From: a virus
Direction: 5' to 3' (one strand)
DNA length: 64,000 nt
IMG/VR virus record: IMGVR_UViG_3300048848_000007
Location: 6,411-70,410 of that record
How positions within the stretch are numbered: the stretch's first letter is position 1; every line of letters begins with the position of its first letter. A program made the translations under genes and the position numbers. The notes below the pieces were generated by a model. It ran no database searches, was not told the DNA's origin, and was given only the letters and a program-made list of their open reading frames with translations. Positions 316 through 9,144 of the stretch are shown here, in pieces.

Positions 316-963
316 ATGGGTAGTATGATCAAGCTGTTTGGCAACATCACCGCACACGGTGTCGAGTACAAACTCCCCGACAAACCCCCTTCTGAACTGG
401 TCTGGGTTGACCCCAAAGGCCATGTGAACTGCTGGTGCTCGGTACTGGGTGGCACATCCGGTTCCAGCTCCAGTCCTCGGACCGAGTTCCGTGAAACCAT
501 CAACGAGTTCTCCAGTGATAAATACAACTGGATCGTGGATGGCAAGACTACACATACCCTCGCAGGCACTGTCCGTGTCGAGCTGGCTCCGTCCAGTGGC
601 AAGGTCATCGTCGGTCAGATCCATGCCCACCTTGCTGGCAATCCATTCCTGATGGTGACCTGGTGGAACGGGTACATCCGTGTGGACATGCGCTTCAAGC
701 CTGATGGCGATGCCGTCAACGTACTCAAGCTGGCCTGCCCACTGAGCAAGTCCTTCAAGTACCTGATCACCATCAGCCCTGAAGGGATCATCCACATCAA
801 CCTGAACGGTGAAACCTTCACCACCAACGTGGACACAGCGTGGAAGGCTTGCCCCTTCTATTACAAGTTCGGTGCGTACTGCATCGACCATGAAGGTCCA
901 GCTGAAGAAGGTGCGTGGGTCGTCTACGAAGACTTTGCGGCGTTGCACGATGAAGCAGCTTAA
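316..963 (+). CDS. Polysaccharide lyase family 7 (alginate lyase-like)
   Basis: Has the three PL7 signature regions in order: SPRTEFRE, GQIHAH and YYKFGAY. No signal peptide seen. Confidence 0.85.
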   Translation: MGSMIKLFGNITAHGVEYKLPDKPPSELVWVDPKGHVNCWCSVLGGTSGSSSSPRTEFRETINEFSSDKYNWIVDGKTTHTLAGTVRVELAPSSGKVIVGQIHAHLAGNPFLMVTWWNGYIRVDMRFKPDGDAVNVLKLACPLSKSFKYLITISPEGIIHINLNGETFTTNVDTAWKACPFYYKFGAYCIDHEGPAEEGAWVVYEDFAALHDEAA

Positions 964-1219
964 CCAAGGGCAGCGGTTCACAACCGATCCCTTGGAGGCG
1001 ATTCGCACGGCGTTCCACGTGGAACAATCCGATGTTGGTCTGACCCAAGGCATGTACTTGGGCCAGCACGACTACACCTTTCAGGCCGACGACGTAGGCC
1101 GTTTGGTCGAGGTTGTTCAAGACATGTCCCCCGGATTTCTTTCGTGGGGGTTTGGGTCTGTGTTTGCAGACCTGCGTCAGCAATACCCCGATCCCAAACC
1201 TTATGTAGTCGAGGTATGA
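950..1219 (+). CDS. Hypothetical protein (89 aa)
   Basis: ATG at 950 (MKQLNQ...) overlaps the end of the lyase gene; trimmed from the 809 ORF. Confidence 0.65.
   Translation: MKQLNQGQRFTTDPLEAIRTAFHVEQSDVGLTQGMYLGQHDYTFQADDVGRLVEVVQDMSPGFLSWGFGSVFADLRQQYPDPKPYVVEV
1011..1026. promoter_or_regulatory. parS: parS-like centromere site (CGTTCCACGTGGAACA)
   Basis: Perfect 14-bp palindrome GTTCCACGTGGAAC, matching the bacterial chromosomal parS consensus. Lies inside a CDS. Confidence 0.7.
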
Positions 1220-3758: not shown

Positions 3759-4109
3759 ATGTCTGAACAGAAAATCACCATCGGCCTGATGGGGAGTCTG
3801 GTAAAGCCAATCCCTGACGGTCACAGAAATCCTCTCTGGGATGATATTCAAGATCGGCTGAACAAGGTCGATCTGGAGATCAACTACGAAGGCACGCTGA
3901 TCTATAGTCTGGAAATTCATAAAGACGCCTACGACTTCGACGGCCTGTCCATCGGCAACCCGGCCAACCCGGACGACTTCGTTCGTCTGTGTGCTGATCA
4001 GCTGATGCCCGTTTCACCTCACACCGTCGAGCCGTACTTCGCTCACTGGTACAACGGTGCAGACAGCCCAATGTCCACGCTGGAACTCGAAGAGTTCATG
4101 AAAACCTGA
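3759..4109 (+). CDS. Hypothetical protein
   Basis: 116-aa ORF with an upstream GAGG; followed by the parS site and a terminator. Confidence 0.7.
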   Translation: MSEQKITIGLMGSLVKPIPDGHRNPLWDDIQDRLNKVDLEINYEGTLIYSLEIHKDAYDFDGLSIGNPANPDDFVRLCADQLMPVSPHTVEPYFAHWYNGADSPMSTLELEEFMKT

Positions 4110-4110
4110 G

Positions 4111-4126
4111 TGTTTCACGTGGAACA
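4111..4126. promoter_or_regulatory. parS: parS-like centromere site (TGTTTCACGTGGAACA)
   Basis: Full 16-bp match to TGTTYCACGTGRAACA. Intergenic, immediately after a stop codon and before a terminator. Confidence 0.8.
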
Positions 4127-4127
4127 T

Positions 4128-4161
4128 AAAAATCCCCCATCGGAAACGGTGGGGGATTTTT
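4128..4161 (+). terminator. Rho-independent terminator (possibly bidirectional)
   Basis: AAAAATCCCCCATCG-GAAA-CGGTGGGGGATTTTT. Confidence 0.85.
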
Positions 4162-4192
4162 ATTTGGATATCAATTACTTATGGAGTTTCCC

Positions 4193-5233
4193 ATGGAACA
4201 GAACCTGTATCGTAGCACCCCGAGGAAGATCAGGGAGTACGTCCGGGACTGCATGTATGCAGGTCTGGTGCCGTATGTTCACTCTTCGCCGGGGATGGGC
4301 AAGTCAGCCATCATGGCCTCCCTGGCTAAAGAGCTGGACCTGAAGCTGATCGACCATCGTCTGTCCACTTCAGCCCCTGAAGACCTTTCCGGTCTGCCCC
4401 GTTTTCGTGAAGACGGCACTGCCGAATTCGCCCCGTTCGCTGACCTGTTCCCGCTGACCACTACTGCGATGCCGGAAGACAAGCAAGGCTGGATGCTCTT
4501 TCTCGATGAGTTCCCGTCTGCTTCCAAGTCGGTACAGGCCGCAGCCTACAAGCTGATCCTCGACAAGATGGTCGGCCAGCATAAGCTCCACGAGAACCTG
4601 TGCATTACGGCTGCCGGTAACCTGATGACCGACCGGGCCATCGTCAATCCGATCGGCACTGCCATGCAGAGCCGGGTAGTCCATCTGGAAATGGAACTCA
4701 GCTTTGATGAGTGGCTGTATGACGTGGCTCTGAAAGAGAACTACGACAGCCGGGTCATTGCTTACCTGTCCCAGTACCCGTCCAAGCTGATGGACTTCAA
4801 GCCCGACCACAACGAGAAGACCTTCTGCTGCCCTCGTACCTGGGAGTTCATGGAACGGCTGGTGCGAACCAAGGGGATGATCAAGGACGCTGACACGGCT
4901 CTGTACGCTGGCACCATCACCAGTGGTGTAGCAGCTGACTTCGTGCAGTTCACTCAGGTCTACGCCAACATCGTCAAGATCCCGGACATCCTCCGTGATC
5001 CTGCTGGCTGCTACCTGCCACAAGACGCCAACACTCGCTGGGCCACCATCTCTTCGATGATGGAACACGTGAACGAGAAGAACTTCGGTCCCATGTCCGA
5101 GTACGCCAATCGTTTCGATATGGCCTTCCGTATCCTGTTCTACCGCTCGGTGATGGTCCGTCAACCTGACCTGCGTACTCATGCTCCCTTCCGGGATGCC
5201 ATGTCCACCTTGTCCAAATACCTGCATGGGTGA
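4193..5233 (+). CDS. AAA+ ATPase (N4 gp24-like, MoxR-type)
   Basis: Walker A SSPGMGKS; Walker B LFLDEF. Confidence 0.9.
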   Translation: MEQNLYRSTPRKIREYVRDCMYAGLVPYVHSSPGMGKSAIMASLAKELDLKLIDHRLSTSAPEDLSGLPRFREDGTAEFAPFADLFPLTTTAMPEDKQGWMLFLDEFPSASKSVQAAAYKLILDKMVGQHKLHENLCITAAGNLMTDRAIVNPIGTAMQSRVVHLEMELSFDEWLYDVALKENYDSRVIAYLSQYPSKLMDFKPDHNEKTFCCPRTWEFMERLVRTKGMIKDADTALYAGTITSGVAADFVQFTQVYANIVKIPDILRDPAGCYLPQDANTRWATISSMMEHVNEKNFGPMSEYANRFDMAFRILFYRSVMVRQPDLRTHAPFRDAMSTLSKYLHG

Positions 5234-7190: not shown

Positions 7191-7450
7191 GGTCACCGTA
7201 AGTGACCCCGATGCACCTGTGCTGATTCACAGGCTGCATTGGTCAGGTAGCAGAGCTGCTCGGAGCAATATCATTCACCCCATGTGTAAGCCCTGCAATG
7301 CGCAGGCTTGTGGTAAGTAAGCTCAGAGCTGAAATGGTGATCTATGGTTTGTGGTTCGATTCCACTCGCTGGCAGTCAGGGGGACGCCCTGTGCTGCTAC
7401 CTGAACCAATGCAGCTTTCCCAATGAGAGAACTCCGGTTCTCTCTTTTTT
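7191..7450 (+). ncRNA. Putative structured ncRNA with a long closing stem and a tRNA-like T-arm
   Basis: 7233-7253 pairs with 7394-7415 (21 bp, one bulge). Internal hairpins include GTGG-TTCGATT-CCAC (7351-7365). Ends in a terminator. No plausible + strand ORF. Confidence 0.6.
7425..7450 (+). terminator. Rho-independent terminator
   Basis: GAGAGAAC-TCCG-GTTCTCTC followed by T6. Confidence 0.85.
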
Positions 7451-7732
7451 ATCGAGCCGGTTGGGAATGGCTGACTAGCGAAGGCGAAGCCGGAGTCTGT
7501 CTGGCATTCACGACTGGCCGCTGCCGCAGGCGACGTTCAGCTGACCCACTGCGGTGTGCCATGAGATACATAGAAGGGATGAGTTTCACCCCTATGTAAA
7601 TCAATGACTTAGACAGGGGGGTTCGTTCATCTGGATGAACACACCCCTGTTCAAATCCGAGTGCTATATCAGCCTGTATGTGCGCTATGCTATTCATGCT
7701 GTTCACTATCTCACAGACGTAGAGACACCATC
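7451..7732. other. Putative plasmid-type origin/operator region upstream of rep
   Basis: Non-coding; imperfect inverted repeats at 7569-7596 and 7613-7650; sits directly upstream of a Rep homologue. Confidence 0.45.
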
Positions 7733-8224
7733 ATGAGCGACCAGAAACCTGTGCGGTATCACCAATCCCCGGTACGGGGTACATGGGTTCAGACTGAGCG
7801 TGCAGGCCATGAGGCATGGGCAGCACTCACTCAGGCAAGCCCCAAGGCTGCCCAGCTGATGCACGTGCTCGTTGCCAACATGGATGAGAAGGGTGCCTTG
7901 GTGACCAGTCACAAGGTCTTGGCAGAGCTGTGCAGCGTGTCGGTCATGACCATACGCCGTGCAGTCGATACCCTGACCAAGCTCAATTTCATCCAGACCA
8001 TTCGCATCGGCAGTGAACGGGGTGGTGCCTTGGCCTACATCGTCAACAGCCGTATCGCATGGGCGGACAAGCGAGCCAACATCCGCTACGCCAAATTCAG
8101 TGCCACCGTGCTGGTATCGTCTGAAGAACAGAACGTCCTCGACGGTCCCCCACTCCGTCAGATCCCCCGCATTCAGGTCGAAGAAGACCTGGAACAGACT
8201 CTTGAGTTAACCGCAGTGCAATAA
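7733..8224 (+). CDS. rep: Plasmid replication initiator protein, pBBR1 Rep-like (winged HTH)
   Basis: GTWVQTERAGHEAWAAL...LMHVLVANM...HTH...AYIVNSRIAW...FSATVLV...LRQIP parallels pBBR1 Rep as recalled (GHWVQTERKAHEAWAGL...AYVVNDRVAW...FSAAVVV...LRRIP). Confidence 0.82.
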   Translation: MSDQKPVRYHQSPVRGTWVQTERAGHEAWAALTQASPKAAQLMHVLVANMDEKGALVTSHKVLAELCSVSVMTIRRAVDTLTKLNFIQTIRIGSERGGALAYIVNSRIAWADKRANIRYAKFSATVLVSSEEQNVLDGPPLRQIPRIQVEEDLEQTLELTAVQ

Positions 8225-8232
8225 GGTGAGCC

Positions 8233-8421
8233 GTGAGTAATGAAGTAAGAGAAGTCTGGGAAGACGCCTACAGTCGTGGCGTCGTTGCCCGCAATGAAAA
8301 CCGCCCCAAGGTTCAACCCAAATCCTTTAACAAGAACTTCTATTACTGGCTCGCCGGATGGAATGACCGTGACATGGAATTGGAGAACCAAGGGATCAAC
8401 GAGGAATGCAGTAATGGTTGA
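8233..8421 (+). CDS. Rmf-like small protein
   Basis: AYSRG...P...WLAGW pattern parallels ribosome modulation factor (AYQRG...CP...WLGGW). Confidence 0.5.
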   Translation: MSNEVREVWEDAYSRGVVARNENRPKVQPKSFNKNFYYWLAGWNDRDMELENQGINEECSNG

Positions 8422-8608
8422 TACCCATGAAGTCTTGCAGTTCACCTATACCAACCATCGTGGCGAAACAGCGAAGCGTCGTGTGATGCCCGAGCGTATC
8501 TACTTCGGTACTACGCCTGATCATCCTCAACCTACTTGGTTGATGACGTCCTACTGCTTCGACCGTCAGGCGCAACGCACCTTCGATCTGAAGAAAATGG
8601 TGTTCTGA
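8414..8608 (+). CDS. Stand-alone WYL-domain protein (64 aa)
   Basis: FTYTNHRGETAKRRVMPERIYFG...WLMTSYCFDRQAQRTFDL follows the WYL-domain pattern; no HTH. Confidence 0.72.
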   Translation: MVDTHEVLQFTYTNHRGETAKRRVMPERIYFGTTPDHPQPTWLMTSYCFDRQAQRTFDLKKMVF

Positions 8609-9144
8609 TGAAGAAGCCGATGACGTTGCCCAGCTGGATGACGAAAGTTATCAAGCCGGGGCATATCACCCAAAGCTCCATGGATGCAGGCCATCTCGTT
8701 CTTCTGTTGGCTCTGAGCCTGCGACTTCACGACAGTGCCGATGAGATCCGTGATCTGTGCCGTCGTGTGCAACCTCAAGTGCCGATGGGCATGGTGCCCA
8801 ACATGAAGCGTCTGGCTCGTGAGCCGGATGACGAGAAGGTCTTCGAGGCTGCCCTGCTGATCATCAACAAGGGCTGCATGAAGATGGGCATAGCACCGGA
8901 TGTGGTCTTTGTCCGCAACGATGCTGAACCAGAGAAACCACCCTTCCTCACCGAAGATGAAGTCATGGACCAGCTCAAGGTCATGGCTGCCGAGATCTCT
9001 GATGCAACCACCTTGGCCCGTCTGATTAATGAGATGGTCGATAACGTGCCCGAGCATATGAAGGGCGCACTCTATGTTGTGGCGGGGTCCAAGAACCCCC
9101 GTGCCACTATTCACGCTGCTGTAAGGGATTATCAATATGGCTGA
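8608..9144 (+). CDS. Hypothetical protein (178 aa)
   Basis: TGATG coupling with the WYL gene. Confidence 0.7.
   Translation: MKKPMTLPSWMTKVIKPGHITQSSMDAGHLVLLLALSLRLHDSADEIRDLCRRVQPQVPMGMVPNMKRLAREPDDEKVFEAALLIINKGCMKMGIAPDVVFVRNDAEPEKPPFLTEDEVMDQLKVMAAEISDATTLARLINEMVDNVPEHMKGALYVVAGSKNPRATIHAAVRDYQYG

What the first reader, a model, noticed from the sequence alone, without database searches (positions are those of the whole stretch)
4111..4126. Intergenic consensus parS site squeezed between a stop codon and a terminator
Seen: TGTTTCACGTGGAACA starts 2 nt after a stop codon and ends 2 nt before a terminator stem, so it has no coding constraint. Established: it matches the 16-bp ParB-binding consensus. 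ParB-CTP loads at parS, spreads, and recruits SMC. Inference: the phage DNA could be positioned or segregated by host ParABS. Alternatively it could titrate ParB, disturbing host chromosome segregation or silencing nearby promoters.
Basis: partly seen in the sequence, partly recalled or inferred. Interest (0 to 1): 0.8.

Follow-up and report, generated by a model that had tools for sequence, protein, structure and literature searches.

The report
Host centromere sites on N4-like phage
A soil N4-like phage of the Pseudomonas type carries one exact and one near-exact copy of the bacterial chromosome "centromere" (parS) but no partition proteins, a few kb from a captured plasmid replication gene, so it probably borrows the host's ParB to position or pass on its DNA, a trick already known from Bacillus phage phi29.

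Summary
TGTTTCACGTGGAACA at 4111-4126 matches the chromosomal parS consensus 16/16. It is non-coding, with one base after a stop codon and flush against a strong terminator. A second site (1011-1026, 15/16, only an outermost base off) lies inside a conserved gene.

Chance is unlikely: about 3e-4 for the exact site and 3e-6 for both sites. Site 2 was made by seven lineage-specific changes, all toward parS, including two amino-acid replacements.

The record is a 75-kb soil N4-like phage; the nearest cultured relative is Pseudomonas phage Arace01. I found no ParB or ParA domain in it.

The sites are not a family trait. Arace01, Ab09, LIT1 and 79 N4-like IMG/VR records have no core-intact site. 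None of Arace01 and those 79 records carries the Pseudomonas-plasmid Rep gene that lies 3.5 kb downstream here.

Best reading: these are selected loading sites for host ParB. With the captured Rep/origin they would give plasmid-like inheritance or positioning. Binding and function are untested.

The principle is known: phi29 has five parS sites used through host Spo0J. This scan has also noted orphan parS on several other phages. This is therefore a new variant, notable for the N4-like, non-sporulating context and the link to Rep.

The parts
4111..4126 (.). parS site 1, TGTTTCACGTGGAACA. It matches the chromosomal ParB-binding consensus 16/16 and is intergenic.
   Evidence: Expected by chance 2-4e-4 per genome. 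It is the reverse complement of the B. subtilis parS used in biochemical work (papers listed).
1011..1026 (.). parS site 2, CGTTCCACGTGGAACA. It is 15/16, with a perfect 14-bp inner palindrome. Its reverse complement TGTTCCACGTGGAACG differs from the P. aeruginosa perfect site only at the outermost base. It lies in frame (codons A-F-H-V-E-Q) inside gene 950-1219.
   Evidence: PAO1 parS1/parS4 also differ only at that base and are high-affinity, functional sites (PMC4368675). Two relatives have GCTTTTTTGGTTGAAGA (AFLVEE) at this position. Seven window-specific changes fall in these 16 nt, in the densest patch of such changes in the gene (P=0.004).
4126..4166 (+). Intrinsic terminator directly abutting site 1: 17-bp stem, GAAA loop, T-run.
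   Evidence: The same terminator sits upstream of the orthologous ATPase gene in Arace01, but with no parS in front of it.
3759..4109 (+). Upstream gene (116 aa, PHROG 10749, unknown function). Its stop codon is one base before site 1.
   Evidence: In three Logan relatives the 111-aa homologue overlaps the ATPase gene, with no intergenic spacer at all.
4181..5233 (+). Downstream AAA/MoxR-like ATPase gene, conserved in N4-like phages. The start may be the ATG at 4193.
   Evidence: The closest homologue in the big protein collection is that of Arace01, at 73% identity.
950..1219 (+). Conserved 89-aa N4-like gene that contains site 2.
   Evidence: 64% identity over the full length to Arace01_00029; three-way alignment.
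7661..8224 (+). Plasmid-type replication initiator gene (context, not part of the site). It lies 3.5 kb downstream of site 1.
   Evidence: tblastn shows 58-67% identity to rep genes of Pseudomonas plasmids, including IncP-type Rsu2 'replication initiation protein'. The gene is absent from 80 N4-like relatives.
4185..4200 (.). Degenerate look-alike AGTTTCCCATGGAACA (13/16, core CCATGG) at the ATPase start. I do not count it as a site.
   Evidence: PAO1 parS5, which has a broken core, is not bound in vivo (PMC5961200).

Best explanation
The two sites are selected loading sites for the host's chromosomal ParB, on a phage that has no partition proteins of its own.

Shown:
- One site is 16/16 and intergenic. 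A second is 15/16 and 3.1 kb upstream. Both have the intact GTTNCACGTGNAAC core.
- Both are unique to this lineage among about 80 N4-like genomes.
- A Pseudomonas-plasmid Rep gene, also unique to this lineage, lies 3.5 kb downstream.
- No ParB or ParA domain was detected in the phage.

Inferred:
- The host is a soil Pseudomonas. This rests on the nearest phages, the nearest Rep homologues and a PL7 alginate lyase gene.
- Host ParB-CTP would load at the two sites and slide over the neighbouring kilobases, which include the plasmid-type origin and rep.
- Through ParA, and possibly SMC, it would position phage DNA on the nucleoid and deliver copies to both daughter cells while lysis is deferred (plasmid-like carrier state or pseudolysogeny).

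This would be the Gram-negative, non-sporulating counterpart of phi29 using Spo0J and parS to get its genome into the forespore.
For: - Sequence identity and placement.
- Chance expectation: 2-4e-4 for site 1, 1.5-2e-3 for an outer-mismatch second site, joint about 3e-6.
- Site 2 is derived. Arace01 and the Logan relative L128 share 23 identical nucleotides there (AFLVEE). The window has seven changes in 16 nt, all toward parS, including L->H by a three-base codon change and E->Q. This is the densest cluster of lineage-specific change in the gene (P=0.004).
- An outermost-base mismatch is tolerated: PAO1 parS1/4 (PMC4368675); the M. xanthus consensus is exactly TGTTCCACGTGGAACG (PMC7022226).
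- GTTTCAC is the second-best ParB half-site in P. aeruginosa ChIP-seq (PMC5961200).
- I detected no phage ParB_N, HTH_ParB, AAA_31 or CbiA domain.
- The Rep homologue of Pseudomonas plasmids is absent from 80 relatives. None of those relatives has a core-intact parS.
- GTTCCAC half-sites are in excess around the sites: GTTYCAC 18 in 10.3 kb, scan statistic P=1e-4, or 0.01 without the parS arms. Against a synonymous-codon shuffle the counts are 18 vs 10.2+/-1.8, and GTTCCAC alone is 11 vs 4.6.
- One chromosomal parS plus ParAB stabilises unstable plasmids, including in P. putida and P. aeruginosa (PMC7022226).
- Precedent: phi29 has five parS sites and uses Spo0J (PMC2731898).
- The N4-like Pseudomonas phage Ab09 can be maintained for many passages as a pseudolysogen (PMC6467409).
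- A second soil study holds a 157-nt contig across 4050-4206 with 5 differences and no gaps, and one of two sampled 31-mers of 4089-4148.
Against: - There are no binding or expression data.
- The evidence rests on one metagenomic genome. The identical Logan contig is probably from the same sample.
- The sites are absent from every relative that could be read in full. Arace01 has the terminator without parS. Homologues of the upstream gene have no spacer. The 79 IMG/VR N4-like records show only chance level. Ab09 and LIT1 have none, so N4-like pseudolysogeny does not need parS.
- Five plasmids and two viral contigs with the homologous Rep have no such site.
- N4-like genomes are linear and classically strictly lytic, and ParB clamps can slide off free ends.
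- One arm of site 1 has T where all PAO1 half-sites have C (PMC4368675).
- The half-site excess is modest. Five other frequent 7-mers score as high, and GTTTCAC and GTTCCAT are not in excess once amino-acid sequence is fixed.
- The exact host, and therefore its ParB, is unknown.
Confidence: 0.55

Rival explanations
1. The sites do bind host ParB, but not for inheritance. One version is a ParB sink: a replicating phage pool (two sites per genome, times many copies) draws ParB off the four to ten chromosomal sites and disturbs host origin segregation, SMC loading or division. Another version is local: ParB bound next to the ATPase-metallopeptidase-dcd-rep block dampens its transcription as a lysis-deferment switch.
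For: The sequence evidence is the same as for the main reading. ParB bound to the intergenic sites parS3 and parS4 represses adjacent promoters in P. aeruginosa, and excess ParB silences the neighbourhood (PMC7022226). Plasmids carrying parS fail to establish when ParB is in excess (PMC4368675). N4-like phages are lytic and reach high copy number (general knowledge).
Against: A strong terminator separates site 1 from the downstream gene, and only about 17 nt remain for a promoter. A sink does not explain the co-occurrence with a plasmid Rep. It also does not explain why the other N4-like phages of ParABS-bearing hosts lack such sites. parB is not essential in Pseudomonas (PMC7022226), so the gain from titration is unclear.
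Confidence: 0.17
2. Chance or neutral sequence. The 16-mer arose by drift or came in with a small insertion and does nothing, and site 2 is a coincidence of the codons A-F-H-V-E-Q.
For: Neither site is conserved in any fully readable relative. A composition-matched control palindrome occurs in 59 IMG/VR contigs, so single exact matches do arise by chance in large collections. The finding was picked from a scan of very many windows. Overall divergence from the relatives is high (64% nt identity in the site-2 gene), so seven changes in 16 nt is not extreme in itself.
Against: The joint expectation is about 3e-6 per genome, or about 3e-7 with the 3.1-kb spacing. In IMG/VR no control contig has two sites, while 11 of the 82 listed parS contigs do. 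All seven derived changes at site 2 go to the parS base, in a stretch that is identical in two otherwise diverged relatives, and two of them cost amino-acid replacements. The sites co-occur with a unique plasmid Rep. The site-1 spacer keeps its length and 97% identity in a relative from another study whose other laid pieces are 87-96% identical.
Confidence: 0.1
3. The palindrome serves something other than ParB. It could be an operator for an unrecognised phage or host helix-turn-helix protein. It could also be an RNA hairpin that works with the adjacent terminator in 3'-end formation or stability.
For: Site 1 can form a short hairpin directly before the terminator (centroid structure). The neighbouring genes are PHROG families of unknown function that could hide a DNA-binding protein. 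CACGTG is a generic palindromic core.
Against: The hairpin is weak (5 bp) next to a 17-bp terminator that works without it in Arace01. Site 2 lies inside a gene, far from any terminator, yet shares the same 14-bp core. The match is to the full 16-bp ParB consensus, not only to CACGTG: the genome's eight other CACGTG copies lack the arms. I know of no other protein family that reads this 16-mer (own knowledge).
Confidence: 0.08

Closest known systems
Host-type parS sites of Bacillus phages phi29 and Nf (Spo0J-dependent spore entrapment; Meijer et al. 2005, as summarised in PMC2731898)
   Same: A virulent podovirus without its own ParB carries several copies of the host chromosomal parS. Host ParB (Spo0J) is used to segregate the phage genome while the lytic cycle is on hold. 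phi29-like IMG/VR contigs with 2-4 exact sites turned up in my own scan.
   Different: Here the phage is a 75-kb N4-like phage of a Gram-negative, non-sporulating host, so there is no forespore to enter. It has two sites, not five, and they are internal, not near the genome ends. No counterpart of the Spo0A boxes is known. A plasmid Rep/origin lies nearby, which phi29 lacks. Nothing has been tested experimentally.
Chromosomal parS of Pseudomonas (P. aeruginosa parS1-4, P. putida TGTTCCACGTGGAACA) in the ParABS-SMC system
   Same: The same 16-bp palindrome. Site 2 has the same kind of deviation as PAO1 parS1/4 (outermost base only). Extra GTTCCAC half-sites cluster nearby, as around oriC.
   Different: The sites are on a phage, not next to oriC or the parAB operon. 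One arm of site 1 has T at the position that is C in all PAO1 half-sites. Binding has not been measured.
Partition modules of phage-plasmids (P1 parABS, N15 sopABC, extrachromosomal mycobacteriophage parABS)
   Same: A phage genome combines a plasmid-type replication function with centromere-like sites.
   Different: Those elements encode their own ParA and ParB with element-specific centromeres, and they have repressor-controlled lysogeny. This phage has no detectable ParA or ParB, uses the host-type site, and no lysogeny control has been recognised.
Orphan host-type parS on other phages noted earlier in this scan (e1-5343996, e1-3325429, e1-3721319, e1-3506870, e1-5302280, e1-3412014, e1-5319323)
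   Same: An exact chromosomal parS on a phage without ParB, read as borrowing host ParB.
   Different: Those are other phage groups, and several of their sites are conserved among relatives. Here the sites are lineage-specific, one of them was built inside a coding sequence, and they sit beside a captured plasmid Rep.

Membership tests
Chromosomal-type parS (ParB/Spo0J binding site) | 16-bp palindrome matching TGTTNCACGTGNAACA with an intact CACGTG core | tested here: met
   Site 1 is 16/16. Site 2 is 15/16, with only the outermost base off. Consensus taken from PMC7022226.
Chromosomal-type parS (ParB/Spo0J binding site) | More frequent than chance in the replicon | tested here: met
   Expected 2-4e-4 (exact) and about 1e-2 (one mismatch) per genome; joint about 3e-6. 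None of 100 shuffles reached the observed count.
Chromosomal-type parS (ParB/Spo0J binding site) | Specific binding by the cognate ParB, with CTP-dependent loading and spreading | not testable with these tools
   Needs EMSA or ChIP-seq. No RNA or ChIP data exist for this phage.
Chromosomal-type parS (ParB/Spo0J binding site) | A cognate ParB is present in the same cell | tested here: inconclusive
   The phage encodes none that I could detect. The host is inferred to be Pseudomonas, a genus with chromosomal ParAB (PMC7022226). The actual host genome was not identified: both scans of the bacterial genome collection came back empty.
Chromosomal-type parS (ParB/Spo0J binding site) | Conserved at the same place in related replicons | tested here: not met
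   Absent in Arace01 at both positions, in Logan relatives and in 79 N4-like IMG/VR records. One close relative keeps the spacer layout, but its letters were not readable.
phi29-type hijack of host ParB by a virulent phage | Phage lacks its own ParB but carries multiple host-type parS sites | tested here: met
   No ParB_N or HTH_ParB detected. Two sites present.
phi29-type hijack of host ParB by a virulent phage | The lytic cycle is suspended by a host regulator (Spo0A boxes) so that the genome can be segregated | not tested
   No candidate host-regulator sites were searched for. Pseudolysogeny is documented for the N4-like phage Ab09 (PMC6467409), but that phage has no parS.
phi29-type hijack of host ParB by a virulent phage | Destination is the forespore of a sporulating host | tested here: not met
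   The host is inferred to be Pseudomonas, which does not sporulate (established knowledge). The mechanism can be analogous but not identical.
Phage-plasmid with an active partition system (P1, N15 type) | Own parA/parB (or sopA/sopB) operon next to its centromere | tested here: not met
   No AAA_31, CbiA, ParB_N or HTH_ParB match anywhere in the 75-kb genome, while the control genomes ring.
Phage-plasmid with an active partition system (P1, N15 type) | Plasmid-type replication initiator and origin | tested here: met
   The ORF at 7661-8224 is 58-67% identical to rep genes of Pseudomonas plasmids. I did not test whether the origin functions.

The most novel reading that the evidence does not exclude
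This N4-like phage may have assembled a minimal plasmid-maintenance kit from borrowed parts: a captured Pseudomonas-plasmid Rep/origin plus two host-type centromeres, one of them written into a coding sequence. With it the phage could persist as a heritable, ParABS-partitioned episome in growing Pseudomonas without any partition or lysogeny gene of its own. That would be the first plasmid-like lifestyle in the Schitoviridae, and it would show that evolving a 16-bp site is enough to gain partition.
Probability: 0.3. Interest if true: 0.8.

Novelty: new variant of a known kind. Interest (0 to 1): 0.58.

Why it matters
N4-like phages are treated as strictly lytic and are used as therapy and biocontrol candidates against Pseudomonas and related bacteria. 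A member that can hook its DNA onto the host's chromosome-segregation machinery, next to a plasmid replication gene, would point to a hidden persistence mode. That could be a carrier state or a plasmid-like episome, and it would be reached without any lysogeny gene that annotation pipelines look for.

It would also extend the phi29/Spo0J principle from spore-formers to Gram-negative, non-sporulating hosts. Site 2 shows how cheaply such a function may be acquired: seven point changes inside an existing gene.

In practice, this is a compact, testable system: two 16-bp sites, a non-essential host parB, and a clear read-out in phage retention in dividing cells.

Tried and rejected
- Capture from a host chromosome or plasmid. 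The exact 28-mer (parS plus the start of the terminator) is absent from the 185,579-species genome collection. BLAST of the spacer against PLSDB gave only generic terminator hits. No source was found.
- Host identification through the alginate lyase gene in bacterial genomes gave nothing. 'Relatives' cannot be drawn for a virus record.
- Close relatives through the upstream 116-aa protein. There are only three distant Logan homologues (45-55%), all without a spacer, and none in JGI metagenomes. Through the ATPase, the nearest of 1,057 strong hits is Arace01 at 73%. The exact terminator is not in IMG/VR.
- The Logan contig with the identical protein is 100% identical to the window and probably from the source sample, so it is not independent.
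- No RNA holder is listed for the region, so nothing can be said about expression.
- Run X2 gave no cover over 7201-9000 or over site 2. I draw no conclusion about Rep or site 2 in that relative.
- Co-acquisition of parS with Rep. Five Pseudomonas plasmids and two viral contigs with the homologous Rep carry no core-intact site. Rejected for those donors.
- A partner protein encoded next to the sites. The neighbours are PHROG families of unknown function with no Pfam or NCBIfam hit.
- Half-site enrichment as strong evidence. It holds against uniform placement and a synonymous shuffle. However, GTTCCAC ranks only 6th of 444 frequent 7-mers, and the other variants are not enriched. I keep it as weak support.
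- The simple terminator scan missed the 4126-4163 hairpin. Folding shows it clearly.

Full report
**What is there**

The window is bases 6411-70410 of a 75,312-bp virus record. The record ends in a 127-bp terminal overlap and comes from a soil metagenome.

It is an N4-like phage. It has a 3,545-aa virion RNA polymerase-sized ORF and N4-type replication and structural genes. 57.9 kb aligns to Pseudomonas phage Arace01 at 73.6% identity, and more distant matches go to N4-like phages of P. putida, Achromobacter and Erwinia.

At 4111-4126 the sequence is TGTTTCACGTGGAACA. This is the reverse complement of TGTTCCACGTGAAACA. It is therefore a 16/16 match to the conserved chromosomal parS consensus TGTTNCACGTGAAACA (PMC7022226).

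The site begins one base after the TGA of a 116-aa gene (3759-4109). It runs directly into a 17-bp-stem, GAAA-loop terminator at 4126-4163 (fold z = -4.6). The conserved AAA ATPase gene follows at 4181. The site carries no coding constraint.

**Second site**

CGTTCCACGTGGAACA at 1011-1026 has a perfect 14-bp inner palindrome. It departs from the Pseudomonas perfect site only at one outermost base. That is the same kind of deviation as P. aeruginosa parS1 and parS4. Those two sites are high-affinity, and a single site from the parS1-4 cluster is enough for segregation (PMC4368675). The reverse complement of site 2 equals the M. xanthus consensus.

Site 2 lies in frame inside a real 89-aa gene that is 64% identical to Arace01_00029.

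**Is it chance?**

Markov models of orders 0-3 give these expected counts per genome:

| Event | Expected per genome |
|---|---|
| Exact site | 2-4e-4 |
| One-mismatch site | about 1e-2 |
| One-mismatch site, outer base only | 1.5-2e-3 |
| Both sites together | about 3e-6 |

A composition-matched control palindrome (the pattern read backwards) occurs in 59 IMG/VR contigs, and never twice in one contig. A single exact site in a viral contig could therefore be chance. A pair is not plausibly chance.

At site 2 the two available outgroups, Arace01 and the Logan contig L128, are identical over 23 nt (…GCTTTTTTGGTTGAAGA…, AFLVEE). The window reads GCGTTCCACGTGGAACA (AFHVEQ). That is seven lineage-specific substitutions in 16 nt, every one to the parS base. 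They include a three-base codon change (Leu to His) and Glu to Gln. The patch is the densest cluster of window-specific change in the gene (P = 0.004).

GTTCCAC/GTTTCAC half-sites, which P. aeruginosa ParB also binds (PMC5961200), are concentrated around the two sites:
- 18 of the genome's 41 fall in 10.3 kb (scan statistic P = 1e-4; P = 0.01 without the parS arms).
- A synonymous-codon shuffle gives 10.2 +/- 1.8 against the observed 18.
- GTTCCAC ranks only 6th of 444 frequent 7-mers, and the other variants are not enriched.

I count the half-site result as weak support only.

**Who would bind it?**

I found no ParB_N, HTH_ParB, AAA_31 or CbiA/ParA domain in any frame of the phage genome, while the control genomes ring. 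The genes next to the sites are PHROG families of unknown function. Any ParB would therefore be the host's.

Three things point to Pseudomonas as host: the nearest phages, a PL7 alginate lyase gene, and a plasmid-type Rep whose best homologues are all on Pseudomonas plasmids. Pseudomonas has chromosomal ParAB acting on TGTTCCACGTGGAACA. I could not identify the actual host genome.

**Conservation**

The sites are not a family trait.
- Arace01 has the same terminator upstream of its ATPase gene, with no parS before it. It has no site within two mismatches anywhere.
- Three Logan relatives with the homologue of the upstream gene have no spacer at all.
- Of 79 N4-like IMG/VR records, one has a one-mismatch hit, and its core is broken. 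That is chance level.
- The P. aeruginosa N4-like phages Ab09 and LIT1 have none.
- The lineage is isolated: the closest ATPase among 5.8 billion proteins is that of Arace01, at 73%.

There is one hint of a close relative. A second soil study holds a 157-nt contig spanning 4050-4206 with five differences and no gaps. It also holds one of the two sampled 31-mers of 4089-4148. That relative keeps the spacer, but I could not read its letters at the site.

**Context that changed my reading**

Earlier notes of this scan flagged a plasmid Rep at 7661-8224. I checked it. tblastn gives 58-67% identity to rep genes of Pseudomonas plasmids, including an annotated 'replication initiation protein' of IncP-type Rsu2.

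None of 80 N4-like relatives has this gene. Two lineage-unique features of plasmid-maintenance type, a replication initiator and centromere-like sites, therefore sit within 7.2 kb.

The sites did not arrive with Rep from the donors I could test. Five such plasmids and two viral contigs have none. No chromosomal or plasmid source of the parS-terminator unit was found either.

**Mechanism proposed**

Host ParB-CTP would load at the two sites and spread over the adjacent kilobases, which include the plasmid-type origin. It would then couple phage DNA to ParA, and possibly SMC. Copies would be positioned and inherited while lysis is deferred.

The individual steps are established for chromosomes and for test plasmids. 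One parS plus ParAB stabilises unstable plasmids in P. putida and P. aeruginosa. Long-term pseudolysogeny is documented for the N4-like Pseudomonas phage Ab09 (PMC6467409). For this phage, every step after 'the sequence is a consensus site' is inference.

Rival readings are a ParB sink or local silencer, chance, and a different reader of the palindrome. I weigh them in the structured fields.

**Comparison with what is known**

The principle is not new. phi29 carries five parS sites and uses host Spo0J to get its genome into the forespore (PMC2731898).

My IMG/VR scan recovered that biology independently. Multi-parS contigs L010 and L035 are phi29-like podoviruses, and none of the 11 multi-site records has ParB_N. 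This scan has also noted orphan host-type parS on several other phages.

Three things are different here. The phage group and host type are new for this trick (N4-like, Gram-negative, non-sporulating). One site shows evidence of having been created inside a gene. The sites are linked to a captured plasmid Rep.

**Verdict**

The feature is real and very probably selected. It is a new variant of a known kind, and its function is untested.

Noticed in passing
whole genome G000 (window and flanks): Many 6-bp palindromes are completely absent although 16-46 copies are expected: CTGCAG, ACCGGT, GCCGGC, GGATCC, CTCGAG, CCCGGG, GAGCTC, CGTACG. This is very strong restriction-site avoidance. CACGTG, the parS core, is only mildly depleted (10 vs 18).
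   Followed up: no
L040:6490-8140 (IMGVR_UViG_3300028591_000176, 77 kb, 97% complete): Three exact parS sites (one TGTTTCACGTGAAACA and two abutting TGTTTCACGTGGAACA) sit in a 1.3-kb AT-rich non-coding region of a large viral contig. The contig has a serine recombinase and no ParB_N. It is another orphan host-type centromere cluster.
   Followed up: partly
L010, L035 and other multi-site loci: In IMG/VR the parS consensus is at least twice as frequent as a reversed control (>=119 vs 59 contigs). It is clustered in 11 of the 82 listed contigs, against none of the controls. Two of the clustered contigs are phi29-like podoviruses of 11-12 kb.
   Followed up: partly
L301-L309 (JGI/ENA metagenome contigs): The layout 'stop codon - parS - one base - A-run/GC-stem terminator' recurs in at least four unrelated contig lineages (GC 32-61%) that share nothing else with the phage. 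Placing parS flush against a terminator may therefore be a general arrangement.
   Followed up: partly
window 7475-7822: In the Logan graph of the source run, short segments of the origin/rep region (including a 42-nt node at 7781-7822) are shared with two contigs of 52 and 20 kb at about 20x, while the phage path runs at about 270-286x. A related rep/origin seems to sit on another replicon in the same soil sample, possibly the donor type.
   Followed up: no
window 316-963: A PL7 alginate lyase (Pfam Alginate_lyase2, E = 3e-29) is encoded among the small early/middle genes. It fits an alginate-producing host such as Pseudomonas or Azotobacter.
   Followed up: partly
genome 3.2-14.6 kb (window up to about 8200): AACCAAG is the most over-represented 7-mer relative to a synonymous-codon shuffle (8 vs 1.8 expected).
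   Followed up: no
genome 5979-6005 (421-431 nt before the window start): Two direct GTTCCAC half-sites lie 11 bp apart (GTTCCACtggtGTTCCACaccgaaca) inside the conserved Clp-protease-like gene. The second one starts a 13/16 parS look-alike.
   Followed up: no
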